From Dehalococcoidia bacterium (lineage in GTDB: Bacteria; Chloroflexota; Dehalococcoidia; GIF9; AB-539-J10): a DNA stretch of 64,000 nt. Below, piece by piece: positions 29,791 through 58,342 of the stretch; the first letter of the stretch is position 1, and each line of letters begins with the position of its first letter. The DNA is taken from the NCBI GenBank assembly GCA_030615625.1, contig JAUWYX010000002.1, positions 82,722 through 146,721 of the forward strand, written 5' to 3'. The notes under the pieces were generated by a model that saw only the letters and a list, made by a program, of their open reading frames with translations, searched no databases and was not told the DNA's origin. A program made the position numbers and the translations under genes.

Positions 29791-29833
29791 TTTGCCTATG
29801 CTATTATATGATGCTTTAACTATTGAGGCAAGG

Positions 29834-41866: not shown

Positions 41867-41903
41867 ACCGCTTGACGGTATAGAGGATGTGATATAATAA
41901 TTC
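41867..41903 (+). promoter_or_regulatory. Putative sigma-70-type promoter (CTTGAC -35, 18-nt spacer, extended -10 TGATATAAT) of the second beta-helix gene
   Basis: AAAACTTCGAAAAACCGCTTGACGGTATAGAGGATGTGATATAATAA, with the same architecture as the element 1 promoter module. Confidence 0.5.
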
Positions 41904-42010
41904 AGAAAATTGTAACATGCATTTAATTAACAGGATTTTAACACAAATAGTTTATTATACTGTAAGCCGAAGATTTTGGGGAAAGTGAACTGTTACGAAG
42001 GAGGTGAAGA

Positions 42011-43630: not shown

Positions 43631-43689
43631 GCGTAACAGCAATCTCGGGCACTAAGTAAACCCTAGGGGGAGTGAAGAGAAACGGTGTA

Positions 43690-43714: not shown

Positions 43715-43875
43715 CCCTTTATGGTGCTCTTGGTTTAGTTATCGTGGCACCCTGGATTGCTATAGCGGTGGTCATTATAGTTGGGGCAGGCGCTGAAAAA
43801 CAGGCCAGAATTTTAACAACGTACACCGACTTGTCGGTGCTGTACCTCAAAGACAAAACCTTGCTTACATCGGGG

Positions 43876-44040
43876 TAACAGATTAGGTTTCCCAAAAACC
43901 TGAAGGGGTCTCTGGCTCATCAAATTGCTACTATGGGTCGTATGAGAGCCGGCACCCAGCCTGTGTCACCAGATTCACCGATTTTCTACCAGATGCGGAT
44001 GATTTTATGTAAAATTTGCCAAGCACAGACACTTAAGTGG
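43876..44040. repeat. Element 1 copy b
   Basis: GGTAACAGATTAGGTTTCCCAAAAACCTGAAGGGGTCTCTGGCTCATCAAATTGCTACTATGGGTCGTATGAGAGCCGGCACCCAGCC...; upstream of the DUF169 gene. Confidence 0.6.
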
Positions 44041-45005: not shown

Positions 45006-45072
45006 TATGAACCAAGATTCTGGAAAGCTAAACCATTACAGATTTAGTTATCCATTGAGCAAGGAGGGAACA

Positions 45073-46605
45073 ATGAGGACAAAAGAGCAGTATATACAGG
45101 GTCTGGCAAAAATGAAGCGAAACATTTACTTCAATGGCGCGCTAATCGACCATACAGACGAGCTACAGATGGACTGTATAAATACCATCGGCACCACATT
45201 TGACGAGGCTCTCAAGCCAGAGAACCAGGACCTGTGCACCGCCATTTCTCATCTCACCGGCGAGCGTATCAGCCGCTTCACCCACATCCACCAGAACACC
45301 GACGACCTGCACAAGAAGCAGGACATGACCCGCATGCTCTGCCAGAAGGTAGCCGGCTGCATCCAGCGGTGCATGGGCATTGACGCCACCAATGCCGTCT
45401 ACAACGTTTCTTACGAAGCGGACAAGATGAACAAAGGCGCCACACAGTACCACGAGAACTTCAAGAAGTGGCTTATTCGCTTCCAAACAGAAGACCTGGT
45501 GGGCTGCTGCGCCCAGACGGACGTCAAGGGCGATAGGATGCTCAGGCCTGCTGACCAGCCAAACCCGGATGCCTACGTACGGATTAAAGAGAGGCGCAGT
45601 GATGGCATCATCGTCAGCGGCTGCAAGTTACACATCTCCGAGGCATCAGTTGCTGATGAGATACTGGTGGTGCCGACACGAGCGTTGCGTCCAGAGGACA
45701 AGGACTACGCCGTCGCCTTCGCCATCCCGGGCGATTGGGAAGGACTGAAACAGATTGTTACCGTCCATAACCTCAGGCCCAGAGAACACTTCAAGCGTGG
45801 CTTCCTGCCCGGAGCCACAGATTCCTATATGATATTTGACAACTGCTTCGTGCCCTGGGAAAGAGTCTTCCTCGCCGGCGAATGGCAGCATGGCGGCGTG
45901 CTGGCTCTCCTCTTCGCCCTTTTCCACCGCCACTCCTATTCTGGCTGCAAACCGGCTCTTGGCGACGTACTTTTGGGAACCGCGTCACTTGCTGCCGAGG
46001 TGAATAACATCCACAAGACACCCGGCGTCCGGAAGAAGCTGGCTGAAATTATCATGGTCACCGAGCTGGGTTATGCTGCGGGATACACAGCCTCTGCCCT
46101 GGGCAAGCCAGAGGTCTACATACCCGGGGTGGGATTTGTGCCCTATGGCCCCGGCTCCTATATACCCAATTCAATTTACTGCAACGTCGGCCGCTGCCTG
46201 ACGGGTGAGGCAGTCTATCATGAAGCTGAGATGCTCTGCGATATCACCGGCGGCGTGGTAGCCACCTTCCCACACGAGAAAGATTTCCTGAACCCCGAGA
46301 CCCGTGACTTTCTACTGAAATACACAAAGCGCAATCCGGACATGCCCGTGGAGGATCAGGCACAGCTATGGCGTTATCTGAGTGATGTGCTCTGCTCAGC
46401 GACCGGAGGCATACACAATGTCGGCAGTTACCATGGTGGTGGCTCACCTATCATGGAACAAATCGCCATCACTACCCAGTACGACATCGAGTCCAGGAAG
46501 AAGCTGGTCAGGTACATCGCCGGCATGAGCGGTGGCGACCCTGATGCCCTGAGCAAAAAGATGACTCAGCCAAGCAAGATACCCGCCGAGGCAGCCAGGC
46601 GGTAA
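45073..46605 (+). CDS. 4-hydroxybutyryl-CoA dehydratase / 4-hydroxyphenylacetate 3-hydroxylase (HpaB/AbfD) family flavoprotein
   Basis: MRTKEQYIQGLAKMKRNIYFNGALI..., FTHIHQNTDDLHKKQDMTRMLCQKVAGCIQRCMGIDATNAVY, and DKDYAVAFAIPGD closely parallel the AbfD-type family. ATG at 45073 after AAGGAGGGA. Confidence 0.7.
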   Translation: MRTKEQYIQGLAKMKRNIYFNGALIDHTDELQMDCINTIGTTFDEALKPENQDLCTAISHLTGERISRFTHIHQNTDDLHKKQDMTRMLCQKVAGCIQRCMGIDATNAVYNVSYEADKMNKGATQYHENFKKWLIRFQTEDLVGCCAQTDVKGDRMLRPADQPNPDAYVRIKERRSDGIIVSGCKLHISEASVADEILVVPTRALRPEDKDYAVAFAIPGDWEGLKQIVTVHNLRPREHFKRGFLPGATDSYMIFDNCFVPWERVFLAGEWQHGGVLALLFALFHRHSYSGCKPALGDVLLGTASLAAEVNNIHKTPGVRKKLAEIIMVTELGYAAGYTASALGKPEVYIPGVGFVPYGPGSYIPNSIYCNVGRCLTGEAVYHEAEMLCDITGGVVATFPHEKDFLNPETRDFLLKYTKRNPDMPVEDQAQLWRYLSDVLCSATGGIHNVGSYHGGGSPIMEQIAITTQYDIESRKKLVRYIAGMSGGDPDALSKKMTQPSKIPAEAARR

Positions 46606-46680
46606 CAGGTAAGCCTTTCCCAAAAACCTGAAGGGGTCTCTGGCTCATCAGCTTGCTGGAGACAGTTTCCAAAATGGCCG
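46602..46680. repeat. Element 1 copy c (5' part only, truncated)
   Basis: CAGGTAAGCCTTTCCCAAAAACCTGAAGGGGTCTCTGGCTCATCAGCTTGCT, immediately after the stop of the AbfD-family gene. Confidence 0.55.
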
Positions 46681-46749
46681 CCGATATAAATCTTGATAAG
46701 CTGGGCGTTAGTATGTCATTCCTAGCCAACTTATAAATATTATGTCAAT

Positions 46750-46927
46750 CAGATCAGAACTGCAAATCCCCCGTGGTTTGGCTCTGCCGATGGTTTCGCA
46801 AAATCAAACTATCCTTACCGGGTCGACATCTATAGTCCAGCCCCGCGGCAAAGTGAGCCGGGATAACATCCGAGTTGAGTCAGGGCCGCGGAGGAAGAGT
46901 TGCCAGCGATACCGGCCCCTGGCCCTG
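46750..46927. repeat. Element 2 copy (degenerate duplicate of the priA 3' end plus downstream sequence)
   Basis: CAGAACTGCAAATCCCCCGTGGTTTGGCTCTGCCGATGGTTTCGCAAAATCAAAC...GGGTCGACATCTATAGTCCAGCCCCGCGGCAAAGTGAGCCGGGATAACATCCGAGTTGAGTCAGGGCCGCGGAGGAAGAGTTGCCAGCGATACC matches 58006-58200 and, from AATCAAACC onward, the native priA 3' end at 61609-61740. Confidence 0.65.
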
Positions 46928-47005
46928 CTCCCTTGAAGTTCTGTACCCTACGCTATGATCCGAAGCCTCAATTCCTACCTTTGAGCTTTGAGGCGTTCGA
47001 TGTGC

Positions 47006-48118
47006 TCAAATCCCATCCAGCCGGTGAGACACCCTCTCCTCCGTTATCCCCAGTTTGGCGGCAATTTCCTTCTTCTCCAGCCCAGCTTTCTTCAACCTGA
47101 ATATCTCCTTTGTCTGTTTTCCCTTCTCTTCCTTTCTGCCAGCTATTTCCTTTATGTCAAAGATGTGCCCTATCGCTTTTGTCTCTATAAGCTTCTTCTC
47201 TTCCATGCCGGCAAAGACCTTCTCGCCCGCTTCAGTCCGGATTATCACTGTTGACCACCCCTCGGCGGAGCCATCGCTGCCGATGGCGATATCGGCCAGG
47301 TCAACAGCGAAATCCCGGCAAACCAGGCAATGCCTGGGGACACAGCTCTTGACCTCGGTTATGGGCAAAGACAGCTTCTTCCCGCCGGCATATATGTTGA
47401 ACTCATCGGAAATATCCAGCTTATCTACCTGGTTGATATCCACCCCCTTTGCTCTGACTTTCTCTGCTATACCGGCATATTCGTAGTTTTCGCGGCAGAA
47501 CAGTCCTACGGTAAGTTTCACCGGTGATGCCAGAGGTAGGCCTTTGTGCTTCAGGTATCTTATCGACTGTATATGGCACGGGGAACCCACAACGCAGATT
47601 TTGCTCAGTCCGCGGTCAACAACAGCAGCTCGCAACGCCTTCAGCACCGGCACCACGCCGTATTTGGTACCAGCTGCCTGGATAATCTCATCCCTGGTCC
47701 TGGCAATACAGGCTATCGGTGCCCAGCCGTCTCTGCCAACTACCAGTGCCCCGTCTATGACGCCGCTGTCCAGTGCGTACAGAAGTAGCGTGGTTACGAT
47801 TCCACCGTTCTGGCAGGTTCTTTCAATTTCTGTGTCTTTTGTTCTTGCCGTCACCGCACGCCTGTATAGCCCTATTCTTTCCTTTTTTCCCCAGCCGATG
47901 GTGCTGCCCTCTATAGCCTTCATCAGATCGTGCCTGAGCATGTAGCAGGCTTCGTAACAGATACTGCAACCCACGCAATCCATGGTGCGCTTGGTCCGCT
48001 TCGGCTTGCCCTCAACAAACTTGATGTGAAAGCTGGGGCAGGCCAGAATACATGCCCCACATACCGTGCACTCCCCCGTGTCTATTATCTTGGCCTCTAA
48101 ATCTTCATAGCTCGGCAT
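47006..48118 (-). CDS. F420-hydrogenase/dehydrogenase beta-subunit-like (FrhB/FdhB family) FeS-flavoprotein with C-terminal helix-turn-helix
   Basis: N-terminal 2x[4Fe-4S] ferredoxin motifs (CTVCGACILACP, CVGCSICYEACY), a FrhB_FdhB core, and C-terminal KKEIAAKLGITEERVSHRL (HTH-like). The ATG at 48118 is preceded by AGGAG. Confidence 0.55.
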   Translation of the reverse strand: MPSYEDLEAKIIDTGECTVCGACILACPSFHIKFVEGKPKRTKRTMDCVGCSICYEACYMLRHDLMKAIEGSTIGWGKKERIGLYRRAVTARTKDTEIERTCQNGGIVTTLLLYALDSGVIDGALVVGRDGWAPIACIARTRDEIIQAAGTKYGVVPVLKALRAAVVDRGLSKICVVGSPCHIQSIRYLKHKGLPLASPVKLTVGLFCRENYEYAGIAEKVRAKGVDINQVDKLDISDEFNIYAGGKKLSLPITEVKSCVPRHCLVCRDFAVDLADIAIGSDGSAEGWSTVIIRTEAGEKVFAGMEEKKLIETKAIGHIFDIKEIAGRKEEKGKQTKEIFRLKKAGLEKKEIAAKLGITEERVSHRLDGI

Positions 48119-48378
48119 ATATTTATACTCCTGCTTCGGGAATAACAAGCCAGGCTATTTTACCAGACATAGTTTCAGGATGTCAGACTCACCCTGACTC
48201 AGATGTGCACCACGCGATCTTAATAGGCCACAACTACATGTTTGATAAGCACAGCAGAACATGCCCTAGGTGTCTCCTGTTCTCAGGAGCTACACCACAC
48301 AATACGAATCCTGAAGGTCACTCATGGACCGAGGGCACACAGGCAGATGTTCCATACTACACCTAAAAGCTATTCGCT

Positions 48379-50067
48379 CTACTTTAGTTCCCCGCTGGCT
48401 TTCATCCTGGCTATCTCTTCTTCCCTCAATTGCCTCTTGAATAGCTTCAGGGTGACGGTGAGAGGTAGCTCTTCCCTGAACTCAATGAATTTGGGCACGG
48501 CATAAGCTGGCAGCTTCTCCCGGCAGTGACCGATTATCTCTTCGGCTGTCACTTTCCCCCGAGCCTCTTTTTTTAGCCTGATGAAAGCTTTTATCCTTTC
48601 GCTGCCCGGGCGCTCTGGGTCAGGAATCCCAATCGCCACCGCATCGCCAACCGCCGGGTGTTCATACAGAGCGTCGTCAACCAGCCTGGTGTAGACTTTG
48701 AGTCCAGATATATTGGCCATATCCTTGAGCCGGTCTGTGATGTAGAAATAGCCATCCTCTTCCATTCTTACCACATCACCGGTGGGCAGCCAGCCGTCAA
48801 CAAGCCCTTTACCCACCTCAGGCCAATAGCCAATCATTATCTGCGGTCCACGAACCCACAGCTCACCTTCTTGCCCCGGGGCCACCTCCTGACCTGTGTC
48901 CAAGTTTACAATTTTGACATCTGTATCCGGCAAGGGAATGCCTATGGAACCAAACTTTTCGAAAGGCATGAAGCCCGTGATTTTGGAGAAAGATGAAAGG
49001 TTAATGTGTGTACCACCACCGGTTTCGGTTAGCCCATAGGCTTCGGTTACGGGCACACCAGTTTCTTGCCTGAATTTCCGAGCAATCTCGGGAGCCAGCG
49101 CTGCTGTTGTGGAGAAAAACATTGTGGTAATCCTGCCAAGCCCTTGAGCTACAAGCCGTGAGTATTGAGTCGGCACGCAGGCACAGAAAAAGGGGCGATA
49201 CTTCGTCAACATCTGCGCCAGAGTGTCAATGTCTCTCGGGTCGGGAAGCAAGTAACACTTGAGCCCCCAGTAGACACCGAAATGCATAAGTAAGTGACCA
49301 TACGTATGAAAAAGAGGAATGGGGATCATGCCCGAAGCCTTGCCCTTGATTCCAACTTTTAAGGGCTCATATGCCCACGCAGTCTGTATCACTGCCGCTA
49401 TTCGATTATAATGGGTCAACATTACTCCCTTGGGTAAGCCAGTGGCGCCTCCTGTGAATGGTAGGACAGCCAGGTCTTTCATTGGATCGATGTCAACATC
49501 AGGAGGCTTGGGCTCATGGCTGTCTATTAATTCACGGAATTGATATGTGTTTGGTATTTTTTTCAACTCCGGCTCTTCCGATGAATAATCCATGACAGAG
49601 GTGACTATTATGTTCTTGATCTTGGTTCTGTCCTTTATTGAATCTACCGTCTCCAGGGACATCTCGGTGCAGATAACTGTCTCAGCTTCTGATTCACCGA
49701 TCTCGTATGTCAAGTCAGCGGCCTTGTGCATAACGCTGCATGGGACATGGGCTGCCCCGGTTTTCATAATCCCGAAGTCGCTTATCATAAACTGCGGGCA
49801 ATTTGGTAGAACGGTGGCTACTTTGTCGCCTTTCTTAACACCTAAATCAACCAGTGCCGCAGCCAACCTGTCGCTAAGAAGCTTCATCTCGCTATAAAGG
49901 ATTTCTTTCCCCAGATAGAAACAGGCAGCTCTGTCAGGAAACTCAGCCGCAGTGGCATCCAGAAGGCTGTGGGCAGTCATCTTTGGATAAGGTTCTCTTG
50001 TCTGCGGAAGCTTGTACGGCCCCATCTTATATTGCTTTAACCAGGGTTTTTCAGCCATAGCGACCAC
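48379..50067 (-). CDS. AMP-dependent synthetase/ligase (acyl-CoA synthetase)
   Basis: AMP-binding motif FTGGATGLPKGVMLTHYN and the C-terminal ANL superfamily domain. Confidence 0.8.
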   Translation of the reverse strand: MVAMAEKPWLKQYKMGPYKLPQTREPYPKMTAHSLLDATAAEFPDRAACFYLGKEILYSEMKLLSDRLAAALVDLGVKKGDKVATVLPNCPQFMISDFGIMKTGAAHVPCSVMHKAADLTYEIGESEAETVICTEMSLETVDSIKDRTKIKNIIVTSVMDYSSEEPELKKIPNTYQFRELIDSHEPKPPDVDIDPMKDLAVLPFTGGATGLPKGVMLTHYNRIAAVIQTAWAYEPLKVGIKGKASGMIPIPLFHTYGHLLMHFGVYWGLKCYLLPDPRDIDTLAQMLTKYRPFFCACVPTQYSRLVAQGLGRITTMFFSTTAALAPEIARKFRQETGVPVTEAYGLTETGGGTHINLSSFSKITGFMPFEKFGSIGIPLPDTDVKIVNLDTGQEVAPGQEGELWVRGPQIMIGYWPEVGKGLVDGWLPTGDVVRMEEDGYFYITDRLKDMANISGLKVYTRLVDDALYEHPAVGDAVAIGIPDPERPGSERIKAFIRLKKEARGKVTAEEIIGHCREKLPAYAVPKFIEFREELPLTVTLKLFKRQLREEEIARMKASGELK

Positions 50068-50078
50068 GATATCACCCC

Positions 50079-51935
50079 CTATACCTTATCGATTACATAA
50101 TCCAGATTCAGATCCTTGAGCTTTTCCGGCGTTGGCTTTCCGGTCTTTTTGTCCCAGCCGCGGAACTCATAATAGGCATCCAGCGACTGGTCTAATTTTT
50201 TCACCATATGTCCCTGGGCAGCACCCTCAGGTAATGGCTCCTCAAGCAATCGCTTCGGCAGAGTATCATCTGCCCTGGTCAGGCCGTCCCTGACGCTGAA
50301 AGCTCTCGCCAGGTTATAGACCCTCTCCCCGGCTTTTCTGAAATCGTTGACACTAAACTCCCAGCCAACGCAGTTGGCTATCATGTCAACCCAGTCTTCG
50401 GCAGCCAGTGCCATGCCCATGAACTTGCATGTCCCCACGCAATCGAAGACGGTGAGGGCATCTTCGAGGTCTTTGACCACCTTAGCCTCGGCAGGATTTT
50501 CCACAATCCAGTCTTCGATTCGGCTATCTTCAACACACAGGAAAGGAATATCTACGAAGGCTGGCCCTTCAACGTAAGCTGTAATATGGTCGCCGCCGCG
50601 GTTAGCCGTGGCAAATGCCAGACCGCATATCTTGGCTGCCCTAGGGTCATAAGCCGGCAACTCCAGCCCTTTGACGTGCATGGCAAACCTTTCCGCGCCC
50701 TTGTCCAGCTTCGCCGCTACTCTCTTAGTCCCTTCAGCCAGCAGGTCACCAATACCTTCCCTTTTGGCTATCTTGTGTATGAGCTGAATGACAACATCTG
50801 GCTCACCGAATTTCATCTCCAGCCCGTCGGTATCAGCTTTGGTCAATATCCCTTTTTCATAGCACTCTATGGCAAAGGCTATAGTGCTCCCGGTAGAGAC
50901 TACATCCAGCCCGTAGTCATCGCACAAGTTATGTGCCAGTGTCACTGCCTCAAGGTTCTCCAGCGCGCACATGGCACCAAAGGCGCCGATTGTTTCATAT
51001 TCCGGCCCTTCACCCTTACAGGCATAAGGACCGCTCTTCACCACACTTACCCTGCAGCAGCTAATGGGACAGGCGTAGCAATGCTTCCTGTCCACCAAGA
51101 GCGTGCTTTCCAGCGTGATTCCACTTATTTTGTCTATATCCGGCACAACGCCGGTCTGCCAGTTCCTGGTAGGAAACCCTCCCCTGACGTTTACCAAATC
51201 GGTAACCATGGCCGTCCCGTAGGTCTCGAGAGTAATCTTCAGCAGGCTTTCATTAACCAGGTCATAGTTCCTCTTCGAGATTTGGCTGAAAGCATCTTTG
51301 TTGGCTATTTTAATCTCCTGTGTCCCTCTGGCAGCCACTGCCTTCAGACGTTTCGACCCCATTACTGTCCCAACACCACATCTCCCGGCAGGCCGGTGAA
51401 CATCATTGAAAATACCGGCATATCTGACTAAGTTCTCACCAGCTATGCCAATGCAGGCAACATTGAAGTCCTCACCCAGTTCTTCTCTAATTAGCCTGTA
51501 TGTTTCACCAACACCTTTGCCCCAGAGGTGCTTGGCGTCTCTGAGTTCGACTTTGCCGTCATCTATTACCAGGTAGACCGGCTTGGGTGATATACCTTCG
51601 AAGATAATCCCGTCGAAACCTGAGTTTTTCAGGTAGACTCCCCAGCTACCCCCCGAGTTCGCCTCTGCCCAGAAACCGGTTAGAGGCGACTTGGTAACTA
51701 CACAATATCTTCCGGCGCTTGGTGATTCTGTGCCGGTCAAGGGCCCGGTCATAAAAATAAGCTTATTGTCGGGTCCAAGTGGGTCAGTGCCTTTGGACAC
51801 TTCGTCGAAAAGGTATTTTGTTGCCAGTCCGCTCCCTCCCAGGAACATCTTGCAGTCATCCTCTTTAAGAGCCTCTTCTGATACCTTGCCGTTTGTTAAA
51901 TCAACCCTGAGTATCTGTCCCATGTAACCGAACAT
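50079..51935 (-). CDS. Tungsten-containing aldehyde:ferredoxin oxidoreductase (AOR family)
   Basis: MFGYMGQILRVDLTNGKV N-terminus, AOR_N plus pterin-binding domains, and Cys ligands for the 4Fe-4S cluster. The ATG at 51935 follows GGAGGA. Confidence 0.85.
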   Translation of the reverse strand: MFGYMGQILRVDLTNGKVSEEALKEDDCKMFLGGSGLATKYLFDEVSKGTDPLGPDNKLIFMTGPLTGTESPSAGRYCVVTKSPLTGFWAEANSGGSWGVYLKNSGFDGIIFEGISPKPVYLVIDDGKVELRDAKHLWGKGVGETYRLIREELGEDFNVACIGIAGENLVRYAGIFNDVHRPAGRCGVGTVMGSKRLKAVAARGTQEIKIANKDAFSQISKRNYDLVNESLLKITLETYGTAMVTDLVNVRGGFPTRNWQTGVVPDIDKISGITLESTLLVDRKHCYACPISCCRVSVVKSGPYACKGEGPEYETIGAFGAMCALENLEAVTLAHNLCDDYGLDVVSTGSTIAFAIECYEKGILTKADTDGLEMKFGEPDVVIQLIHKIAKREGIGDLLAEGTKRVAAKLDKGAERFAMHVKGLELPAYDPRAAKICGLAFATANRGGDHITAYVEGPAFVDIPFLCVEDSRIEDWIVENPAEAKVVKDLEDALTVFDCVGTCKFMGMALAAEDWVDMIANCVGWEFSVNDFRKAGERVYNLARAFSVRDGLTRADDTLPKRLLEEPLPEGAAQGHMVKKLDQSLDAYYEFRGWDKKTGKPTPEKLKDLNLDYVIDKV

Positions 51936-51985
51936 GTTTGCTCCTCCTTTTTTTTTGCTCGCATGTGCTCCTAAACTGGTCTTTT

Positions 51986-52249
51986 TCACTCTTCGAATTT
52001 TGTCTTGACAGCATCCATTCGCCGCACACGGTGGATTGTCTCAAACGGCGTCTGCGTCAAGTGGAGGACTCGTCTCAATACCTTCTCATCAGGTGCCTCC
52101 CACTCACAGAAGTGCTTGTTTCCAGCGAAATCGCAGTAACTACACCTCCAGGAGACGCCTTTTGGCATGTAATTGGGTGCGGCCTTAGCGCGTGCAATCA
52201 ACTCCTCCTCAGTGAACGGTGCCTTATGAACAACTATAAAACGTGGCAT
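51986..52249 (-). CDS. DUF4242-family small protein
   Basis: MPRFIVVHKAPFTEEEL...HFCEWEAPDEKVLRRVLH resembles DUF4242 (MPxFMDVH...FCLxEAPD...VH). Confidence 0.45.
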   Translation of the reverse strand: MPRFIVVHKAPFTEEELIARAKAAPNYMPKGVSWRCSYCDFAGNKHFCEWEAPDEKVLRRVLHLTQTPFETIHRVRRMDAVKTKFEE

Positions 52250-52309
52250 TTTTACCTCCTGATGGTTCCCCCGAAATTTCTTGAAGTTAGCACAGTGGCT
52301 CCAGTAAAG

Positions 52310-53476
52310 CTAAAAATCTATACTCTTTCCTTCGTATGTGTAGCCCAAGAACCTCTCGGTCTCTGCAACATTAGGTATTCTGGCAGAAACAATCAGCGAG
52401 CCATCGGCCATGATATTGTCTATTAGCTTCTCCATCGCCTTGTTGAAGCTATTCAATGAAATACCCGTTTCTTTAATGCTCAGCGGTTGATTGATATTAT
52501 GAGCCAGTCCTCGTATAGCTTGTGTTAAAATTGTTGCTGCCCTTTTCCCTTTAGGTACTTCAAGTTTGATAGCGTAAGCTATCTCTGCCCAGAGTTCTTC
52601 GCGAACTTCACCGATGAACTCGATGGTGTAGGGCAGAAACAGCCCAACCGCTCTGCCATGGGGAATATGGAATAGGGCGCCAAGGGAATGACCTGCAGCA
52701 TGGGCCATAGATGACAGCGCGTTGATGAAGCCGATACCTGCGATACAGCCTGCATTATGCATCTTTTCCCTGGCTTCCATGTCATTCCCATCCTTCACCA
52801 CTCTAGGAAGATACTGGAAAACAAGCTGTATAGCTTTGATACAGAGACCGTCGGTGAAGTCGTTCTTCCAGGTACAGGTATATCCTTCGACTGCGTGAGT
52901 TAGTGCGTCCATGCCTGTGTCTGCTGTGATTTGTGGAGGCATTGCCCGTGCCAGTTCTGGGTCTACAATAGCAATGTCTGGGACGATCTCCCGGTTAATA
53001 AGGCTCAGCTTCCTTTGGTCAGCTGTATCGGTAAGCACTACCGCAAAAGTTGCCTCGGCACCCGTGCCCGAAGTTGTGGCAACGCAAACAAGCTTGCACT
53101 TGGCACCCAGACCCAAATCCGAAATAAATGGGTTTATTTCCTCTGGCTTTATGTCTGGCCTTTCATATTGCACCCTCATCGCCTTAGCTGCGTCCATAAC
53201 CGAGCCCCCACCTACAGCAACAACCAAATCCGGTCCATACTGGTTCATCAGAGCCACACCCTTTTGTACCGTCTGCAGCGACGGGTCGGGCTCAACCTCA
53301 TCAAAGACAGTGGCTTGTATCCCCGCTTGGGAAAGCTGTTCTTTGACTTTGTCAACGAAACCCAGACTCACAATGTTCTTATCGGTAACGATGAACGCCG
53401 ATTTCCCCTTCAATTGAGCCAGGTGGCTCAGTGCATCTTGTCCAAAAACTACCTCAGGAACCACGAAGTACCACAT
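52310..53476 (-). CDS. Iron-containing alcohol dehydrogenase
   Basis: Fe-ADH family motifs (GGGSVMDAAKAM, the metal-binding His cluster HxxxH...H); 388 aa. Confidence 0.85.
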   Translation of the reverse strand: MWYFVVPEVVFGQDALSHLAQLKGKSAFIVTDKNIVSLGFVDKVKEQLSQAGIQATVFDEVEPDPSLQTVQKGVALMNQYGPDLVVAVGGGSVMDAAKAMRVQYERPDIKPEEINPFISDLGLGAKCKLVCVATTSGTGAEATFAVVLTDTADQRKLSLINREIVPDIAIVDPELARAMPPQITADTGMDALTHAVEGYTCTWKNDFTDGLCIKAIQLVFQYLPRVVKDGNDMEAREKMHNAGCIAGIGFINALSSMAHAAGHSLGALFHIPHGRAVGLFLPYTIEFIGEVREELWAEIAYAIKLEVPKGKRAATILTQAIRGLAHNINQPLSIKETGISLNSFNKAMEKLIDNIMADGSLIVSARIPNVAETERFLGYTYEGKSIDF

Positions 53477-53578
53477 AGCTACCTCCTCTTCATAAACTGG
53501 TTATATTTCTATAACAACATTATGTCAGCAAACAACAGCTATTATCAGCCTGCTTGTGGCTTCACACTATATAAATGT

Positions 53579-53989
53579 CTAATCAGGGAATACGGTCTCA
53601 AATGCAGTCATGCAGTTGACCAGTTCCACGGCTGCCCTGGGCATCTTCATGATTTGGGCCATATCACCTTTGACCTTGATCTTGCCGGTCATCATAGACT
53701 GGACTGGGTCAACCTTTTTGTCCAGTATTTGCTTCATGTTGGTGAACGAGCCGAATATGCGGTATTTCGGAGACTTCTCATTTTCGTCCGTAATCACGCG
53801 AGCCTCGCGGCATTCACCATGCCACAGGTCAAGGTACATGATGTCCCTGTGTTTGTACGATGCATCGGGCTCCACGATAATGTATATGTCTCCTTCCCAC
53901 TTCTTAGCTGCCTCTTTGTATGCCTGGCTGGTTTCCAGCGCCTTTTTCAGTGCATCCACCCACTCTTGTGATCCAAACAAAATAGCCAT
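53579..53989 (-). CDS. SCP2 sterol-carrier-like domain protein
   Basis: C-terminal MTGKIKVKGDMAQIMKM matches the SCP2 signature (GKLKxxGNMxLAMKL). Confidence 0.55.
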   Translation of the reverse strand: MAILFGSQEWVDALKKALETSQAYKEAAKKWEGDIYIIVEPDASYKHRDIMYLDLWHGECREARVITDENEKSPKYRIFGSFTNMKQILDKKVDPVQSMMTGKIKVKGDMAQIMKMPRAAVELVNCMTAFETVFPD

Positions 53990-54126
53990 TTTAACCTCCT
54001 CCTGATGAATTTCGGCTGTAAATTATACCATTTTTTACCCACTCAAGACGTGTTACATAGACACTACCACCCCCTCCCTGAAAATCGATCACTTATATCC
54101 AGCAGTCAGTGACGACGCAGACTACG

Positions 54127-54531
54127 CTATTTCAGTACCATTATCTTTGAAATCTTGAGCAATAGCAAAGGATTGCCCCCAGACTTCAGCTTGCCGGTGA
54201 GCATAGCCACTATAGGGCTGAGTTGGCCAGAGCTAATATGTGCTAGATTTTCAAACCCAGCTTCCATATATGCCGTCGGCTTGGCTACGGCATCATTCTG
54301 CAGCTCAAGTTTGCCTTGATCGAGATGTAGTGTAACGGCTACACCTGACGTCGACTCCTTGATGACTACACTTCCTTTCACCTTCTCAACGCTCTTATAC
54401 TTCTTAGGGTCCTTGAGGTTTGTGTCCATAATCTCCTTGAGCATTACACCCAGACCGTTAAGTTCTTTCCCCTCCTTCACCTTGACTTCAGTCACCTTCA
54501 ATATACCTCCCTTCAAGGATGTCTCCTGCAA
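54127..54531 (-). CDS. SCP2-like domain protein (second copy, divergent)
   Basis: C-terminal LTGKLKSGGNPLLLLKI. Same size class as the neighbouring gene. Confidence 0.4.
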   Translation of the reverse strand: MQETSLKGGILKVTEVKVKEGKELNGLGVMLKEIMDTNLKDPKKYKSVEKVKGSVVIKESTSGVAVTLHLDQGKLELQNDAVAKPTAYMEAGFENLAHISSGQLSPIVAMLTGKLKSGGNPLLLLKISKIMVLK

Positions 54532-54603
54532 AATTTCTTCACCGATTTATCCCTTCATGGTATATTATATTATAATTATCATGACTATTGTAAGGGTATT
54601 TTT

Positions 54604-55479
54604 ATGGAAAGCAACACAGCCGACAAAGATATTATCCGATATATTGCCGGATCAGCAGAGGCATATTTTGCCCCGGACGGGAAAAGACTCCCCGTTATCA
54701 GCCTGAAAACAGCGGCGTCCATCGCCAATTCGCAAGGAATCTCGACCAAAGAGGTGGAAATAACGGCGTTAAAGCAGGGAATTGTCCCCCGGCGATATCT
54801 CCGAAATATAGGCACAATAGGTCTGGTTGGGCAAATTAAACTATTGCAATCAACCGTGGCCGTGGTAGGTGCGGGGGGGTTAGGTGGCACTGTTATCGAG
54901 TTATTGGCCAGACAAGGAGTAGGCCATCTGATTATCATAGATAATGACTGCTTCACTGAGCGGGATTTGAACAGGCAAATTATGTCCACAGAAGAAAATC
55001 TGGGCGAATACAAAGTTACCGTGGCAGCAAAAAGAGCCGGGGAGATAAATTCAGCAACCACAGTCACTACATTTCGGGAAAGGTTGACCAAGGAGAATGC
55101 TCAAAAGCTTCTTGGCAGTGCTCAGGTAGTAGCCGATGGACTTGATAATCTGCCATCACGGTTGGCGGTTGAGCAGGCTTGTCGTCAACTGGCAATACCC
55201 TATGTCTATGCGTCGATAGCCGGCTTTGGTGGTCAACTCATGACTATTTTTCCTGAAGACACGGGGCTGTCTTCAGTTTATGGGTCATCCAATACTATTC
55301 CCGGACAGGGTATAGAGACTAAAATCGGTAACCCTACAGCCACACCTGCAATCATTGCCGCATTACAGGTTCAGGAGGTAGTCAAAATCATCACTGGAGT
55401 CGGTAAACCTGCACGTAACCAGATCCTCTTGGTGGATGCCAGGGAATGTATTATCGACAAAATTGAACTGGGAAGGTAG
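54604..55479 (+). CDS. ThiF/MoeB/HesA-family E1-like adenylyltransferase with an extra N-terminal segment
   Basis: Rossmann-type nucleotide-binding motif VAVVGAGGLGG plus the ThiF core. The ~75-aa N-terminal extension is of unknown function. Confidence 0.65.
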   Translation: MESNTADKDIIRYIAGSAEAYFAPDGKRLPVISLKTAASIANSQGISTKEVEITALKQGIVPRRYLRNIGTIGLVGQIKLLQSTVAVVGAGGLGGTVIELLARQGVGHLIIIDNDCFTERDLNRQIMSTEENLGEYKVTVAAKRAGEINSATTVTTFRERLTKENAQKLLGSAQVVADGLDNLPSRLAVEQACRQLAIPYVYASIAGFGGQLMTIFPEDTGLSSVYGSSNTIPGQGIETKIGNPTATPAIIAALQVQEVVKIITGVGKPARNQILLVDARECIIDKIELGR

Positions 55480-55483
55480 GGAA

Positions 55484-55768
55484 ATGGCATTAGTTACAGT
55501 GCGCTTCTATAGTCTCTGGCGTTCTTATCTCGACACAGATAGCACCACTTTGCAAGCTGATCACATAGATGACGCACTAACTCAGCTCGAAGAGAAATTT
55601 GGTTCTCGCCTCCGAGAGAAACTCGAGGCTGCTGGGATTCATCTGGATGGGAAGATACAGGACTATTCGCTCATTTTGCTGAACGGTATCGCCTTGCGCA
55701 ATCTGAAGAGCACTGCCCTAAAAGAAGGAGATGTGCTACACATCTTTCCACCCGCCATCGGTGGGTAA
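55484..55768 (+). CDS. MoaD/ThiS-family sulfur-carrier protein (C-terminal Gly-Gly)
   Basis: 94 aa beta-grasp-sized protein ending ...HIFPPAIGG*. It lies directly downstream of the ThiF-like gene. Confidence 0.6.
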   Translation: MALVTVRFYSLWRSYLDTDSTTLQADHIDDALTQLEEKFGSRLREKLEAAGIHLDGKIQDYSLILLNGIALRNLKSTALKEGDVLHIFPPAIGG

Positions 55769-55899
55769 CAGCCGAAGAATATCTGATTGTACCTTGTACC
55801 CTTCCGAGTAATTTGGCATACGCCCTCTTTCCTCACAGAGAAAGTTTGCTTTGTCAATCTCCTGATTTGTGTAGTTGCCTGATTTATCAGGCTTTGCCC

Positions 55900-56135
55900 T
55901 TCAACAAGCCAGGCAAGATACCCGTCGAGGCAGCCAGGCGGTAACAGGTAAGTCTTTCCCAAAAACCTGAAGGGTTTTCTGGCTTATCAGCTTGCTATTA
56001 TGGGTTGGTATGAGAGCTAGTGCCCAGCCTCTATCACTCAATTTATGGACTTTTTTACCGAATGGTGATGAAACTTTGAAAAAATCTTGGAAAATCAGAA
56101 AAACTATTGACAATTCCTTCATTAGTGATATAATA
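55900..56135. repeat. Element 1 copy d, including a 3' remnant of the AbfD-family gene and the promoter module
   Basis: 55906-55945 (CAAGATACCCGTCGAGGCAGCCAGGCGGTAACAGGTAAG) duplicates the last ~12 codons plus stop of 45073..46605 (...SKIPAEAARR*). Then comes GTAAGTCTTTCCCAAAAACCTGAAGGG..., followed by TTGACAATTCCTTCATTAGTGATATAATAGG (TTGACA-N17-TGnTATAAT). Confidence 0.65.
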
Positions 56136-56409
56136 GGCTCCATAAGAATAGTCTTAAAAAAATAGTATTTAAGACTAATATCAAGGTGGGTGGTCAAGTG
56201 TGTGCGTCAGGGGTTTGTTATAGTTCCTACGATGCTCCTAAGAGCACATACAGCTATGTGAACGAGGCTCTTTTTCCCTGCCATGGCAAAATCAATCCTC
56301 CCTTTCGAAACCTAAAATCATTGCCAGGCATAGCCGAGGCAATCCCTTCTCTCTTGAGTCGAAGGATAAGGATTTTGGAAAAACCGAACTGTTACTAAGG
56401 AGTTGAAGT

Positions 56410-57993: not shown

Positions 57994-58005
57994 TACAACT
58001 AGCAC

Positions 58006-58342
58006 TCAGACCAGAACTGCAAATTCCCCGTGGTTGGGCTCTGCCGATGGTTTCGCAAAATCAAACCATACCCACCGGGTCGACATCTATAGTCCAGCCC
58101 CGCGGCAAAGTGAGCCGGGATAACATCCGAGTTGGGCTAGGACCACGGAGGAAGAGTTGCCAGCGATACCTGCCCCTGGCTCTGAAGGCAAAAGTAGGCA
58201 CAGGACCAATTACATTGAAATCAATCATGTCCTTTCTTGCCTTTTCATCAAGAATTAGACGATACACCCTCTCTGCCTCACGGCGACATAACTCTTCATT
58301 GGTGTGGCTATAAACCAGGCGGACTAACTGGCTAAAAGGGGG
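58006..58342 (-). pseudogene. Element 2 copy: duplicated 3' fragment of priA (last ~94 codons) plus downstream sequence
   Basis: The reverse strand encodes PPFSQLVRLVYSHTNEELCRREAERVYRLILDEKARKDMIDFNVIGPVPTFAFRARGRYRWQLFLRGPSPTRMLSRLTLPRGWTIDVDPVGMV*. This is ~90% identical to the native PriA C-terminus at 61611-61892. The ORF 58061..58267 is part of it. Confidence 0.7.

What the first reader, a model, noticed from the sequence alone, without database searches (positions are those of the whole stretch)
47006..55768. Accessory redox module: tungsten AOR, Fe-ADH, acyl-CoA ligase, two SCP2 carriers, DUF4242, FrhB-like/HTH, with ThiF/MoaD and an AbfD-family enzyme nearby
A co-directional (minus-strand) run places seven genes together: SCP2 (53579..53989), SCP2-like (54127..54531), Fe-ADH, DUF4242, AOR, acyl-CoA synthetase and a FrhB/FdhB-like FeS-flavoprotein.

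Divergently, a ThiF/MoeB-like E1 and a MoaD/ThiS-like Gly-Gly sulfur carrier are encoded. These fit pterin-cofactor sulfuration, and AOR needs tungstopterin. About 1.5 kb upstream is a 4-hydroxybutyryl-CoA-dehydratase / HpaB-family gene.

Taken together the genes read as a pathway interconverting a hydrophobic acid, aldehyde, alcohol and CoA-ester. SCP2 domains typically bind lipids, sterols or alkyl chains. The substrate is unknown.

The cassette lies inside the priA-repeat-bounded accessory region, so it is probably horizontally acquired.
Basis: inference. Interest (0 to 1): 0.55.

Follow-up and report, generated by a model that had tools for sequence, protein, structure and literature searches.

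The report
Mobile tungsten aldehyde-oxidation cassette in Dehalococcoidia
This is a real, widely shared 9-kb gene cassette of uncultured anaerobic Dehalococcoidia that probably converts a greasy alcohol or aldehyde into an acyl-CoA, and its tungsten enzyme sits next to a likely F420-type electron-acceptor protein not previously reported beside this enzyme family.

Summary
All nine genes are at the stated places, with three start codons corrected.

The core order SCP2-(SCP2)-Fe-ADH-(DUF4242)-AOR-acyl-CoA ligase-FrhB-like is kept in every evaluable Dehalococcoidia species genome whose AOR is at least 77% identical: 22/22 downstream and 23/23 upstream. It is found next to 0/25 distant AORs. An AOR-ligase-SCP2 core also occurs in Asgard and other archaea.

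The AOR is a canonical AOR-clade tungsten enzyme. The "FrhB-like/HTH" protein is the most interesting part:
- Its closest solved relatives are the F420-reductase plug-in subunits (zeta, FwdI) of Ca. Ethanoperedens CO dehydrogenase and tungsten formylmethanofuran dehydrogenase.
- Its three nearest relative clusters elsewhere also sit beside AOR genes.
- It carries a conserved C-terminal helix-turn-helix.

The likely route is alcohol to aldehyde to acid to acyl-CoA. SCP2 proteins would carry the substrate, and AOR electrons would go through the FrhB-like flavoprotein to F420 or a similar carrier.

The cassette is a true accessory element. Close relatives have an empty priA/abfD site, and the insert is flanked by a duplicated target. 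AbfD lies outside the cassette.

Substrate, F420 use and complex formation are inferred, not shown.

The parts
55484..55768 (+). MoaD/ThiS-like sulfur carrier, 94 aa, ends in Gly-Gly. It is divergent from the main operon and is the cassette's first gene on the priA side.
   Evidence: Pfam ThiS 24.0 bits against a cut-off of 22.5. TIGR01687 MoaD family 46.0 bits against a cut-off of 49.5. The translation ends ...PPAIGG. It is called as 94 aa in L001. It is adjacent to the cluster in 10/21 species genomes and in many metagenome loci.
54604..55479 (+). ThiF/MoeB-family adenylyltransferase (E1-like), 291 aa.
   Evidence: Pfam ThiF E 2e-53. It scores below all NCBIfam equivalog cut-offs. It is missing from L143, L145, L151, L161 and L162, which keep MoaD.
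54496..54603 (.). Divergent AT-rich promoter region between SCP2b and ThiF. It contains the conserved motif ATAATTATAATATAATA.
   Evidence: Sequence. The motif is conserved in L001, L003, L004, L007, L008, L009 and L042. Its function has not been tested.
54127..54495 (-). SCP2b, the second and more divergent SCP2-fold protein, 122 aa.
   Evidence: Pfam SCP2 E 5e-10. Called as 122 aa in L001. Present in 15/23 evaluable clusters.
53579..53989 (-). SCP2a, lipid-carrier-fold protein, 136 aa. It is a core member of the cluster.
   Evidence: Pfam SCP2 E 5e-12. PDB 2CX7 (Thermus SCP2) E 7e-17. AF2 model pLDDT 92, with TM 0.84-0.88 to 2CX7; all top folds are lipid-binding SCP2 proteins. Present in 23/23 clusters. 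Orthologues lie next to AOR-ligase in Asgard L030/L031 and in L036.
52310..53476 (-). Iron-type (group III) alcohol dehydrogenase, 388 aa. It is closest to the ADH domain of AdhE.
   Evidence: Pfam Fe-ADH plus ADH_Fe_C. PDB 3ZDR E 5e-90. Present in 23/23 clusters.
51986..52249 (-). DUF4242 / SCO4226-like small protein, 87 aa, role unknown. It is AOR-linked in three lineages.
   Evidence: Pfam PF14026 E 2e-10. Present in 12/23 clusters. It is also next to AOR in L082 and L052. There is no PDB match by sequence.
50079..51935 (-). Tungsten aldehyde:ferredoxin-oxidoreductase-family catalytic subunit, 618 aa, of the AOR clade proper.
   Evidence: PDB 1AOR E 9e-159 over the full length; FOR, WOR5 and BamB score far weaker. 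The residues aligned to Cys288/291/295/494, Glu313 and His448 of P. furiosus AOR are conserved. The exact protein is on an independent contig.
48379..50067 (-). AMP-forming acyl-CoA synthetase, FadD-like, 562 aa, 11 nt downstream of the AOR gene.
   Evidence: Pfam AMP-binding plus AMP-binding_C. Best NCBIfam hits are long-chain-fatty-acid-CoA ligase models, all below cut-off. Best PDB hit is 3G7S, A. fulgidus FadD-1, E 6e-56. Present in 22/22 clusters, and in 5/5 of the clade with AOR 58-77% identical.
48119..48378 (-). 260-nt spacer before the FrhB-like gene. It has a conserved promoter-like TCTGACA-N17-TGGTAAAAT (48157-48186) and an AGGAG ribosome-binding site.
   Evidence: In other lineages this gap is only 18-24 nt.
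47006..48118 (-). FrhB-like flavo-iron-sulfur protein, 370 aa. It has an N-terminal 2x[4Fe-4S] ferredoxin domain (about 47909-48091), an FrhB F420-reductase core (about 47159-47875) and a C-terminal helix plus helix-turn-helix tail (47009-47146).
   Evidence: Pfam. Closest solved chains are 8RIU_B (E 1e-54), 3ZFS_C (FrhB) and 8RJA_E; 8RIU_B and 8RJA_E are identified as the zeta and FwdI F420-reductase modules in PMC11493965. The Cys motifs and the tail are conserved in 31 homologues. The tail hits HTH families. In the AF2 model the tail has pLDDT of about 86-89 and forms three helices. Present in 22/22 clusters. The nearest relatives elsewhere are AOR-adjacent.
46746..46927 (.). Copy of the priA 3' end. 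It marks the right boundary of the cassette and is one half of the duplicated target.
   Evidence: 92% identical to 58003-58184 and 94% identical to 61609-61734. The same copy follows the FrhB-like gene in L004, L042, L016 and L007 and in L138 and L145.
55907..55996 (.). Copy of the abfD 3' end and junction repeat. It marks the left boundary of the cassette and is the other half of the duplicated target.
   Evidence: 93% identical to 46568-46657. The same arrangement, priA then this copy then MoaD, is seen in L149.
45007..46605 (+). AbfD-type 4-hydroxybutyryl-CoA dehydratase family gene. It is a neighbour, not a member of the cassette.
   Evidence: PDB 1U8V E 3e-91, with the residues aligned to Cys99, Cys103, His292 and Cys299 conserved. 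It lies outside the duplicated target and is present at empty sites L092, L094, L101, L103, L108, L113 and L118.

Best explanation
Window 46928-55906 is a roughly 9-kb accessory metabolic cassette of uncultured anaerobic Dehalococcoidia. It most likely feeds a poorly soluble primary alcohol or aldehyde into CoA-dependent catabolism.

Proposed steps:
1. The AdhE-type iron alcohol dehydrogenase oxidises the alcohol to the aldehyde.
2. The tungsten AOR oxidises the aldehyde to the acid.
3. The FadD-like AMP-forming ligase traps the acid as acyl-CoA. This fixes the direction of flux.

Accessory roles:
- The SCP2 proteins hold the hydrophobic substrate, intermediates or acyl-CoA.
- The two electrons from the AOR are not released to free ferredoxin. 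They pass from its [4Fe-4S] cluster into the dedicated FrhB-like protein (2x[4Fe-4S], then [4Fe-4S], then FAD). That protein reduces a hydride carrier, most probably F420, as the homologous zeta and FwdI modules do for CO dehydrogenase and tungsten formylmethanofuran dehydrogenase.
- MoaD, with or without ThiF, supplies dithiolene sulfur for the tungstopterin.
- The conserved C-terminal helix-turn-helix of the FrhB-like protein may add redox-dependent transcriptional feedback or serve as a docking element.

Shown: gene identities, cofactor-ligand conservation, conserved gene order, recurrent AOR/FrhB adjacency, and accessory status.

Inferred: direction of the pathway, chain length and type of substrate, physical AOR-FrhB complex, F420 as acceptor, and DNA binding.
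For: Domain and family assignments.

AOR catalytic and cluster ligands are conserved.

Gene order is conserved in 22/22 and 23/23 evaluable species genomes, and absent next to 25 distant AORs. It is seen again in metagenome loci and in L169, where an SDR, DUF35 and a thiolase follow the cluster.

The AOR-ligase-SCP2a core is kept in Asgard and other archaeal MAGs.

FrhB-like protein as the AOR partner:
- Its closest solved homologues are plug-in F420 reductases with the same architecture. One of them serves a tungstopterin enzyme.
- In the 50%-identity representative library, the three nearest clusters outside its own clade lie directly beside AOR genes that are only 42-45% identical to this AOR: L081 AOR-MoaD-FrhB, L082 FrhB-AOR-DUF4242, L083 AOR-FrhB.
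- More distant relatives sit in Mbh/Fpo/Frh-type contexts, which shows a modular electron-transfer role.
- The gap between the ligase and FrhB-like genes is only 18-24 nt in several lineages.

Other support:
- SCP2a has the fold of lipid-binding SCP2 proteins.
- MoaD-like genes in an aor operon have a precedent (PMC6365974).
- EtfBA and an enoyl-CoA hydratase are encoded elsewhere in the window.
Against: - There is no expression, biochemical or structural datum for any of these proteins.
- F420 specificity cannot be read from sequence. F420 biosynthesis in this Dehalococcoidia lineage was not checked. Only the phylum-level statement that some Chloroflexi make F420 is available.
- In the window's subclade the FrhB-like gene has its own conserved promoter-like site and a 260-nt gap. 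It also carries an HTH. Both also fit a regulator.
- The related AOR-ligase-SCP2 clusters of Asgard and other lineages lack the FrhB-like gene, so it is not essential to the chemistry.
- The ADH is closest to AdhE, which works on short alcohols. No chain-length assignment for the ligase reaches a curated cut-off.
- In L036 the neighbours are a PLP decarboxylase and a TPP enzyme. These point to amino-acid-derived aldehydes rather than lipids.
- The AF2 model of the FrhB-like protein is poor, with mean pLDDT 59.
Confidence: 0.55

Rival explanations
1. The FrhB-like/HTH protein is mainly a redox-sensing transcription factor for the cassette: FeS clusters and flavin as the sensor, HTH as the output. 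The AOR would use free ferredoxin, like the archaeal homodimeric AORs.
For: The C-terminal tail is strongly conserved and matches the Sigma70_r4, GerE and HTH_3 families. It is confidently modelled as helix-turn-helix. The gene has its own conserved promoter-like site in this subclade. The AOR is closest to the ferredoxin-dependent P. furiosus enzyme. The Asgard-type clusters work without this protein.
Against: Full cofactor-binding architecture is kept. All close solved relatives are catalytic F420 oxidoreductase modules. AOR-adjacent relatives L081 and L083 have no HTH tail. In several lineages the gene is only 18-24 nt behind the ligase gene. The two roles need not exclude each other; the flavoenzyme/repressor PutA is an example (own knowledge).
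Confidence: 0.15
2. Same enzymes, different substrate class. The cassette would oxidise short-chain alcohols (ethanol to acetyl-CoA) or amino-acid-derived aromatic or branched aldehydes, as in the Aromatoleum phenylalanine route. The SCP2 proteins would have another role.
For: The ADH is closest to the AdhE ADH domain. In L036 the AOR-ligase-SCP2-ADH set sits with a PLP decarboxylase and a TPP-dependent enzyme. AORs have broad substrate ranges, and the A. aromaticum enzyme acts on phenylacetaldehyde (PMC6365974).
Against: SCP2a is present in 23/23 clusters and has the fold of lipid, fatty-acid and acyl-CoA carriers. The ligase resembles FadD-type enzymes more than acetate-CoA ligases. In L169 a DUF35/thiolase/SDR set follows the cluster.
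Confidence: 0.2
3. The pathway runs in reverse as an electron sink. Acids would be reduced by the AOR to aldehydes and then by the ADH to alcohols, as in acetogens.
For: AORs are reversible. The AOR plus ADH route is known from acetogens (own knowledge; acid reduction by an AOR is also reported in PMC9295118, listed).
Against: An ATP-consuming AMP-forming ligase is fixed next to the AOR gene in 27/27 evaluable clusters of both clades, and it has no role in that route. A partner working at the F420 potential (-340 mV) could not drive acid reduction; this follows the reasoning given for zeta and FwdI in PMC11493965.
Confidence: 0.07
4. The cassette plus AbfD forms a 4-hydroxybutyrate or 1,4-diol route: diol to hydroxyaldehyde to 4-hydroxybutyrate to 4-hydroxybutyryl-CoA to crotonyl-CoA.
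For: The AbfD-type gene, with its FeS ligands conserved, is 400 bp away. The ADH and the ligase give weak hits to 4-hydroxybutyrate dehydrogenase and 4-hydroxybutyrate-CoA ligase.
Against: AbfD is convergent and lies outside the duplicated target. It is present at empty sites without the cassette, and it is absent near the cluster in more than half of the species genomes. Those weak hits are far below the best hits.
Confidence: 0.03

Closest known systems
F420-reducing CO dehydrogenase (zeta subunit) and tungsten formylmethanofuran dehydrogenase (FwdI) of Ca. Ethanoperedens thermophilum (PDB 8RIU, 8RJA; PMC11493965)
   Same: [quoted passage not shown] These chains are its best solved matches (E 1e-54 and 9e-48). 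In both published cases the module replaces ferredoxin or polyferredoxin as the exit for electrons from a low-potential metalloenzyme, one of which is a tungstopterin enzyme.
   Different: Here the associated enzyme is an AOR-family aldehyde oxidoreductase in a bacterium. The paper never mentions AOR or aldehydes. The C-terminal extension here is an HTH motif rather than zeta's dimerisation tail. Neither a complex nor F420 reduction has been shown.
AorABC of Aromatoleum aromaticum (and the Moorella enzyme); PMC6365974
   Same: It is a tungsten AOR that hands electrons to dedicated FeS and flavin subunits, and from there to a two-electron pyridine-type carrier instead of ferredoxin. MoaD-like maturation genes lie in the operon.
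   Different: No AorA (four-cluster) or AorC (FAD/NAD) homologue is present. The partner belongs to the unrelated FrhB family. The AOR is closer to P. furiosus AOR (9e-159) than to AorB (2e-125). The ligase, ADH and SCP2 genes are extra.
Pyrococcus furiosus AOR (PDB 1AOR)
   Same: It is the best full-length match, and all cluster and catalytic residues are conserved.
   Different: It is a homodimeric, ferredoxin-dependent archaeal enzyme. It has no adjacent ligase, SCP2 or FrhB-like gene. Archaeal AOR loci at 43-47% identity lack them as well.
Thermus thermophilus SCP2 (2CX7/1WFR) and eukaryotic SCP2 / MFE-2 SCP2-like domains
   Same: Same fold (TM 0.84-0.88 to 2CX7). The family binds fatty acids, acyl-CoAs, sterols and isoprenoid quinones.
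   Different: Here there are two stand-alone paralogues fixed in an AOR/ADH/ligase operon. The ligand is unknown.
ADH plus AOR alcohol/aldehyde routes of acetogens, Pelobacter and Desulfovibrio (own knowledge)
   Same: An iron ADH is combined with a tungsten AOR for alcohol/aldehyde/acid interconversion.
   Different: Those routes use ferredoxin and short-chain substrates. They have no linked SCP2, FadD-like ligase or FrhB-like module.

Membership tests
AOR clade of the tungsten aldehyde oxidoreductase (AFOR) family | AFOR_N plus AFOR_C domains over the full length, with the best match to characterised AORs rather than FOR, GAPOR, WOR5 or BamB | tested here: met
   Pfam E 1e-136 and 3e-82. 1AOR scores 9e-159, against FOR 2e-107, WOR5 2e-74 and BamB 9e-73. 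The GAPOR model matches only at 5e-12 and only in part.
AOR clade of the tungsten aldehyde oxidoreductase (AFOR) family | Four Cys ligands of the [4Fe-4S] cluster and catalytic Glu313/His448 (P. furiosus numbering; own knowledge of the 1AOR structure) | tested here: met
   All six positions are conserved in the residue-by-residue alignment.
AOR clade of the tungsten aldehyde oxidoreductase (AFOR) family | Contains tungsten bis-pyranopterin and oxidises aldehydes | not testable with these tools
   Needs metal analysis and enzyme assays.
AorABC-type three-subunit bacterial AOR | Adjacent genes for AorA (four [4Fe-4S] clusters) and AorC (FAD, NAD-reducing) | tested here: not met
   No such genes are in the cassette. 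The only FeS-flavoprotein belongs to the FrhB family.
Plug-in F420-reductase modules (zeta / FwdI type; FrhB family) | Ferredoxin domain with two CxxCxxCxxxC-type motifs, plus FrhB_N and FrhB_C with conserved Cys | tested here: met
   C17/20/23/27, C48/51/54/58 and the core Cys residues are invariant in 31 homologues.
Plug-in F420-reductase modules (zeta / FwdI type; FrhB family) | Genomic association with the metalloenzyme it serves | tested here: met
   It is present in 22/22 clusters. AOR adjacency recurs in L081, L082 and L083.
Plug-in F420-reductase modules (zeta / FwdI type; FrhB family) | Binds the partner enzyme and reduces F420 | not testable with these tools
   The F420 site is not defined by sequence motifs. 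F420 biosynthesis genes of the host were not examined.
Helix-turn-helix DNA-binding domain (sigma-70 region 4 / LuxR type) | Match above the family threshold and a tri-helical fold | tested here: inconclusive
   The window tail scores 20.8 bits, below 24.1; the homologue tail scores 27.1 bits, above 24.1. The AF2 model shows three helices at pLDDT of about 86-89. DNA binding has not been tested.
SCP2 sterol/lipid carrier fold | Pfam SCP2 above threshold, and an alpha/beta SCP2 fold | tested here: met
   Both proteins are above the 21.3-bit cut-off. The SCP2a model has TM 0.84-0.88 to 2CX7. SCP2b was not modelled. Ligand binding cannot be tested here.
MoaD/ThiS sulfur carriers with E1-like activator | Beta-grasp family match, C-terminal Gly-Gly, and an adjacent ThiF-family adenylyltransferase | tested here: met
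   The TIGR01687 score is just under its cut-off (46.0 against 49.5). A role in tungstopterin synthesis is inferred from the aorD/aorE precedent.
4-hydroxybutyryl-CoA dehydratase (AbfD) family (neighbour gene) | Best match to 1U8V, and Cys99/Cys103/His292/Cys299 cluster ligands (own knowledge of 1U8V) | tested here: met
   E 3e-91, and all four positions are conserved. However, the gene is not part of the cassette.
Genomic island / mobile cassette | Presence/absence polymorphism at one locus among close relatives, with direct repeats of the target flanking the insert | tested here: met
   Empty sites occur in L092, L094, L101, L103, L108, L113 and L118. Filled sites occur in L138, L145, L149 and others. 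The priA 3' end and the abfD-end repeat are duplicated.
Genomic island / mobile cassette | Own integrase or recombinase | tested here: not met
   All ORFs of 46928-55906 are accounted for by the nine genes. None is a recombinase.

The most novel reading that the evidence does not exclude
The cassette encodes the first deazaflavin (F420)-coupled tungsten aldehyde oxidoreductase. In this reading a bacterial AOR is wired to a zeta/FwdI-type reductase, which makes aldehyde oxidation irreversible. The partner's conserved helix-turn-helix would let the same flavo-FeS protein report redox state to the promoter. AOR/FrhB pairing would be a general design, overlooked until now, that is also present in other uncultured lineages (L081-L083).
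Probability: 0.3. Interest if true: 0.75.

Novelty: new variant of a known kind. Interest (0 to 1): 0.62.

Why it matters
Dehalococcoidia are among the most abundant bacteria of anoxic sediments and aquifers, and their many AOR genes are routinely booked as ferredoxin-reducing (for example). FrhB homologues in such genomes are often booked as "hydrogenase".

If this AOR delivers electrons to F420 through a dedicated module, three things follow:
- The list of AOR electron-acceptor designs (free ferredoxin, AorABC to NAD, polyferredoxin WOR5) gains a new member.
- The plug-in F420-reductase principle, described so far only for ethane-oxidising archaea, extends to bacteria and to aldehyde oxidation.
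- Energy and redox budgets inferred for these organisms change.

The SCP2-ADH-AOR-ligase set also suggests a defined route for degrading hydrophobic alcohols or aldehydes in sediments. It is compact enough (9 kb) to be expressed and tested.

Tried and rejected
- The first look-up with the longest AOR ORF found nothing. The true start is Met19.
- From the species-genome synteny alone I first judged the cluster to be ancestral and not horizontally acquired. The priA-anchored metagenome scan overturned this by showing empty and differently filled sites.
- The 4-hydroxybutyrate pathway idea that includes AbfD was rejected, because AbfD lies outside the insert.
- Assigning F420 specificity from sequence is not possible, since the site is not defined by residues.
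- The AF2 model of the FrhB-like protein from a shallow alignment was poor (pLDDT 59). It was used only for the tail and was not sent to fold search.
- An Rfam scan of 43.5-62 kb found nothing.
- The junction repeat shows no significant RNA structure.
- Literature searches for AOR with FrhB/F420, for AOR with SCP2, and for Dehalococcoidia with AOR found no description of this cluster.
- No operator could be defined from the promoter alignments beyond a conserved AT-rich motif.
- DUF4242 has no solved relative by sequence.

Full report
**What is there**

The window is a piece of a Dehalococcoidia (Chloroflexota) genome. Its AOR, FrhB-like and SCP2 proteins have hundreds of 75-98% identical relatives. 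Wherever these are named, they come from Dehalococcoidia/Chloroflexi MAGs. The surroundings are housekeeping genes: valS, coaBC, fusA, gyrA, dnaX, recR and priA.

Three starts needed correction, using an independent Logan assembly that carries the identical proteins (L001) and the ribosome-binding site:
- AOR, 50079-51935
- FrhB-like, 47006-48118
- SCP2b, 54127-54495
- MoaD, 55484-55768

**Is the grouping meaningful?**

Yes. A scan of one genome per GTDB species with the AOR returned 79 loci. I then searched these with all window proteins by tblastn.

| AOR identity to the window | Downstream | Upstream | Other |
|---|---|---|---|
| At least 77% (about 30 species-level MAGs) | ligase and FrhB-like in 22/22 evaluable | Fe-ADH and SCP2a in 23/23 | SCP2b 15/23, DUF4242 12/23, MoaD 10/21, ThiF 9/21 |
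| 58-77% (Promethearchaeota, Hodarchaeota, an unclassified archaeon, Desulfobacterota-labelled MAGs, other Dehalococcoidia) | ligase in 5/5, FrhB-like in 0/5 | an SCP2a-type protein in several loci | |
| Below 58% (mostly archaeal) | ligase and FrhB-like in 0/25 evaluable | - | - |

The core is therefore SCP2a-ADH-AOR-ligase, with FrhB-like added in the Dehalococcoidia clade. DUF4242, SCP2b, MoaD and ThiF are frequent accessories.

A further locus, L169, repeats the cluster. There a short-chain dehydrogenase, DUF35 and a thiolase follow it, which fits downstream CoA-ester catabolism.

**The enzymes**

- *AOR.* It belongs to the AOR clade proper: 1AOR scores 9e-159 over the full length, while FOR, WOR5 and BamB score much weaker. 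The residues aligned to Cys288/291/295/494, Glu313 and His448 of the P. furiosus enzyme are conserved.
- *ADH.* It is a group III iron enzyme, closest to the ADH domain of AdhE (3ZDR, 5e-90).
- *Ligase.* It is FadD-like (best PDB hit A. fulgidus FadD-1). It reaches no curated equivalog threshold.
- *SCP2a.* It folds with high confidence (pLDDT 92) into the SCP2 lipid-carrier fold, with TM 0.84-0.88 to Thermus SCP2. All further fold matches are fatty-acid, sterol, quinone or alkyl-chain binders.
- *MoaD-like protein.* It ends in Gly-Gly. MoaD-like genes inside the A. aromaticum aor operon are described as putative W-cofactor maturation factors (PMC6365974). MoaD adjacency also recurs at distant archaeal AOR loci.

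**The FrhB-like protein**

This is the part that changes the picture. Its best solved matches are 8RIU chain B and 8RJA chain E (1e-54 and 9e-48), followed by FrhB and Fsr. According to Lemaire et al. 2024 (PMC11493965), these chains are the zeta subunit of the CO dehydrogenase and FwdI of the tungsten formylmethanofuran dehydrogenase of Ca. Ethanoperedens. Both are modules built from an N-terminal two-cluster ferredoxin domain and an FrhB domain with [4Fe-4S] and FAD. They replace ferredoxin or polyferredoxin and make the enzymes reduce F420.

The window protein has exactly this architecture, and all its Cys motifs are invariant in 31 homologues.

A full HMMER search of 1.84 billion representatives found 1937 relatives at E of 1e-10 or better. 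I looked up the genomic context of the nearest ones outside the window's own clade:

| Representative | Identity | Context |
|---|---|---|
| P0244 | 41% | AOR-MoaD-FrhB |
| P0245 | 47% | FrhB-AOR-DUF4242 |
| P0246 | 36% | AOR-FrhB |
| P0247 | 37% | Mrp/Mbh-type membrane complex |
| P0248 | 36% | Nuo/Fpo-like genes |
| P0249 | 38% | a hydrogenase maturation gene |

The AORs beside P0244-P0246 are only 42-45% identical to the window's. AOR/FrhB pairing therefore recurs in at least four separate gene arrangements. More broadly, the family behaves as an exchangeable electron entry/exit module.

The paper that defined these modules never mentions aldehydes or AOR. My literature searches found no description of an AOR-FrhB or AOR-SCP2 cluster. 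In MAG papers such genes are counted as ferredoxin-dependent AORs or as "frhB hydrogenase".

**The HTH**

The last 45 residues or so (...RKEEKGKQTKEIFRLKKAGLEKKEIAAKLGITEERVSHRLDGI) are among the best conserved parts of the protein. They hit Sigma70_r4, GerE, HTH_3 and HTH_23 when scanned alone; a homologue's tail scores above the Pfam threshold. They are modelled as a long helix plus helix-turn-helix at pLDDT of about 86-89, in an otherwise poor model.

Only the closest relatives, including the AOR-linked P0245, have this tail. Alignments to all other representatives stop before it.

In the window's subclade the gene is preceded by a 260-nt spacer with a conserved TCTGACA-N17-TGGTAAAAT promoter-like site. 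In other lineages it follows the ligase gene by 18-24 nt.

I cannot decide whether the tail binds DNA, docks the AOR or mediates dimerisation.

**Most likely mechanism**

Shown: the identities and gene order above. Inferred: the rest.
1. A hydrophobic primary alcohol is oxidised by the ADH.
2. The aldehyde is oxidised by the tungsten AOR.
3. The acid is trapped by the AMP-forming ligase as acyl-CoA. An ATP-consuming ligase fixed next to the AOR argues for the oxidative direction.
4. The SCP2 proteins keep the poorly soluble species in solution or hand them over.
5. The AOR electrons go through the FrhB-like protein to a hydride carrier.

By homology the carrier is F420. All relatives down to 1e-43 are F420 enzymes, whereas the ferredoxin-dependent chlorophyll reductase HCAR scores only 7e-8. 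As argued for zeta and FwdI, coupling a couple near -500 to -600 mV to F420 at -340 mV would make the step irreversible.

Two caveats apply. F420 specificity is not readable from sequence. I could only establish that some Chloroflexi make F420 (PMC8498797), not that this lineage does.

The substrate is open. SCP2, the FadD-like ligase and the thiolase/DUF35 neighbours favour medium- to long-chain or isoprenoid compounds. The AdhE-like ADH and the decarboxylase neighbours in L036 keep short-chain and amino-acid-derived aldehydes in play.

**Accessory status**

The cassette (46928-55906) is bracketed as follows:
- On the abfD side: a copy of the priA 3' end (46746-46927; 92-94% identical to the true end at 61609-61734 and to a third copy at 58003-58342).
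- On the priA side: a copy of the abfD 3' end and junction repeat (55907-55996; 93% identical to 46568-46657).

A metagenome scan anchored on PriA returned 80 loci. In seven of them (PriA 90-93% identical) priA is followed within about 200 bp by abfD and DUF169, with a single priA end. These are empty sites. Others carry the cassette at the same place, with the second priA copy after the FrhB-like gene (L138, L145) or the abfD-end copy before MoaD (L149, PriA 96%). Still others carry GLUG/Flg_new_2 surface-protein genes, a penicillin amidase, or both.

Presence and absence are interleaved across PriA identity levels. No recombinase is encoded in the cassette. A duplicated target of several hundred bases is what a single crossover (Campbell-type insertion) of a circular intermediate would leave. 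That mechanism is my inference.

Two consequences follow. AbfD/DUF169 are neighbours by insertion site, not members of the cassette. The independent Logan contig ends in these repeats, which fits a real repeat rather than a misassembly. The same structure appears in independently assembled MAGs.

**Verdict**

The finding is real and non-random, and largely as described. Its interest lies less in "an accessory redox module with unknown substrate" than in three points:
- a recurrent pairing, undescribed in the searched literature, of tungsten AORs with zeta/FwdI-type F420-reductase-like modules, here with a conserved HTH tail;
- a fixed SCP2-ADH-AOR-ligase unit shared by Dehalococcoidia and Asgard archaea;
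- its behaviour as a movable cassette at a priA hotspot.

I rate it a new variant of known kinds (multi-subunit AORs; plug-in F420 reductases). The mechanism is plausible but untested.

Noticed in passing
window 39078-61610: The whole stretch between recR and priA is a flexible region. In L114, priA is followed directly by ORFs of recR, dnaX and gyrA size, so none of the 22.5 kb present here is there. Other relatives carry one to four large minus-strand ORFs before recR. Here the region holds two beta-helix/Flg_new_2 surface-protein genes, DUF169-abfD, the AOR cassette, a GLUG/Flg_new_2 gene and a penicillin amidase.
   Followed up: partly
window 39121-39236, 43874-44002, 46568-46657, 55907-56071: A repeat of about 100-130 nt (GGTAACAGGTAAG.CTTTCCCAAAAACCTGAAGGGG...GATTTTTT) sits at four cassette junctions. 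It has no Rfam match, and its folding energy is no better than that of shuffled sequence (z from -0.07 to -1.07). Its role is unknown.
   Followed up: partly
window 58003-58342 and 61553-61892: A third copy of the priA 3' end (94% over 284 nt) separates the GLUG gene from the penicillin-amidase gene. Cassettes appear to have accreted in tandem at the priA end.
   Followed up: partly
window 56176-56370 and 61275-61469: The 5' leader regions of the GLUG/Flg_new_2 gene and of the penicillin-amidase gene, on opposite strands, are 74.5% alike over 200 nt. Different cassettes share an upstream element.
   Followed up: no
window 48187-48378: The roughly 200 nt upstream of the FrhB-like promoter-like site are conserved across nine related loci at a level similar to coding sequence. 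They have no ORF and no Rfam hit. This could be a regulatory leader.
   Followed up: partly
L084-L086 (8001-9065; in L085 the gene is at 6116-7180): A 37% identical FrhB-like protein closes an Mrp/Mbh-type membrane-bound NiFe-hydrogenase-like gene cluster, directly after a two-cluster ferredoxin gene. This resembles an FpoF-type input module.
   Followed up: no
L036 2604-13592: In an uncultured archaeon the AOR-ligase pair sits with a PLP-dependent decarboxylase, a saccharopine-dehydrogenase-like protein, SCP2, Fe-ADH and a TPP-dependent enzyme. This hints at aldehydes derived from amino acids or 2-oxo acids. A saccharopine-dehydrogenase-like gene plus a divergent 164-aa SCP2-like gene also precede the AOR in L037.
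   Followed up: partly
L169 899-7151 and L030 4296-6973: A FAD_binding_4 plus CCG/Fer4_8 pair (GlcD/GlcF-like) lies next to the cluster both in a Dehalococcoidia-type locus and in a Promethearchaeota locus. L169 also has a second AMP-ligase.
   Followed up: no
window 28052-28350 and 29065-29363: A 299-nt direct repeat (91% identical). One copy is inside the aspartate-semialdehyde dehydrogenase gene (28438-29544, minus strand) and the other is just downstream of it.
   Followed up: no
window 39574-43672 and 56410-57993: The surface-protein genes are paralogous. They share signal-peptide and N-terminal segments (39574-39663 / 42003-42092) and C-terminal segments (41529-41828 / 43373-43672, 87%). 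The 56410 gene has six tandem 78-84-nt GLUG repeats (57321-57790).
   Followed up: no
window 29718-29790: A tRNA-Pro(CGG) gene on the minus strand overlaps the 5' part of the longest ORF of the phosphoglycerate-mutase-like gene (29642-31018). The true start of that gene is probably further downstream.
   Followed up: no
L026 and L076: Cluster copies with AOR 78%, ligase 73-75% and FrhB-like 58-65% identity occur in MAGs labelled Desulfobacteraceae and Bacillota. This is either inter-phylum transfer or mis-binning. The L026 FrhB-like tail carries an insertion within the HTH.
   Followed up: no
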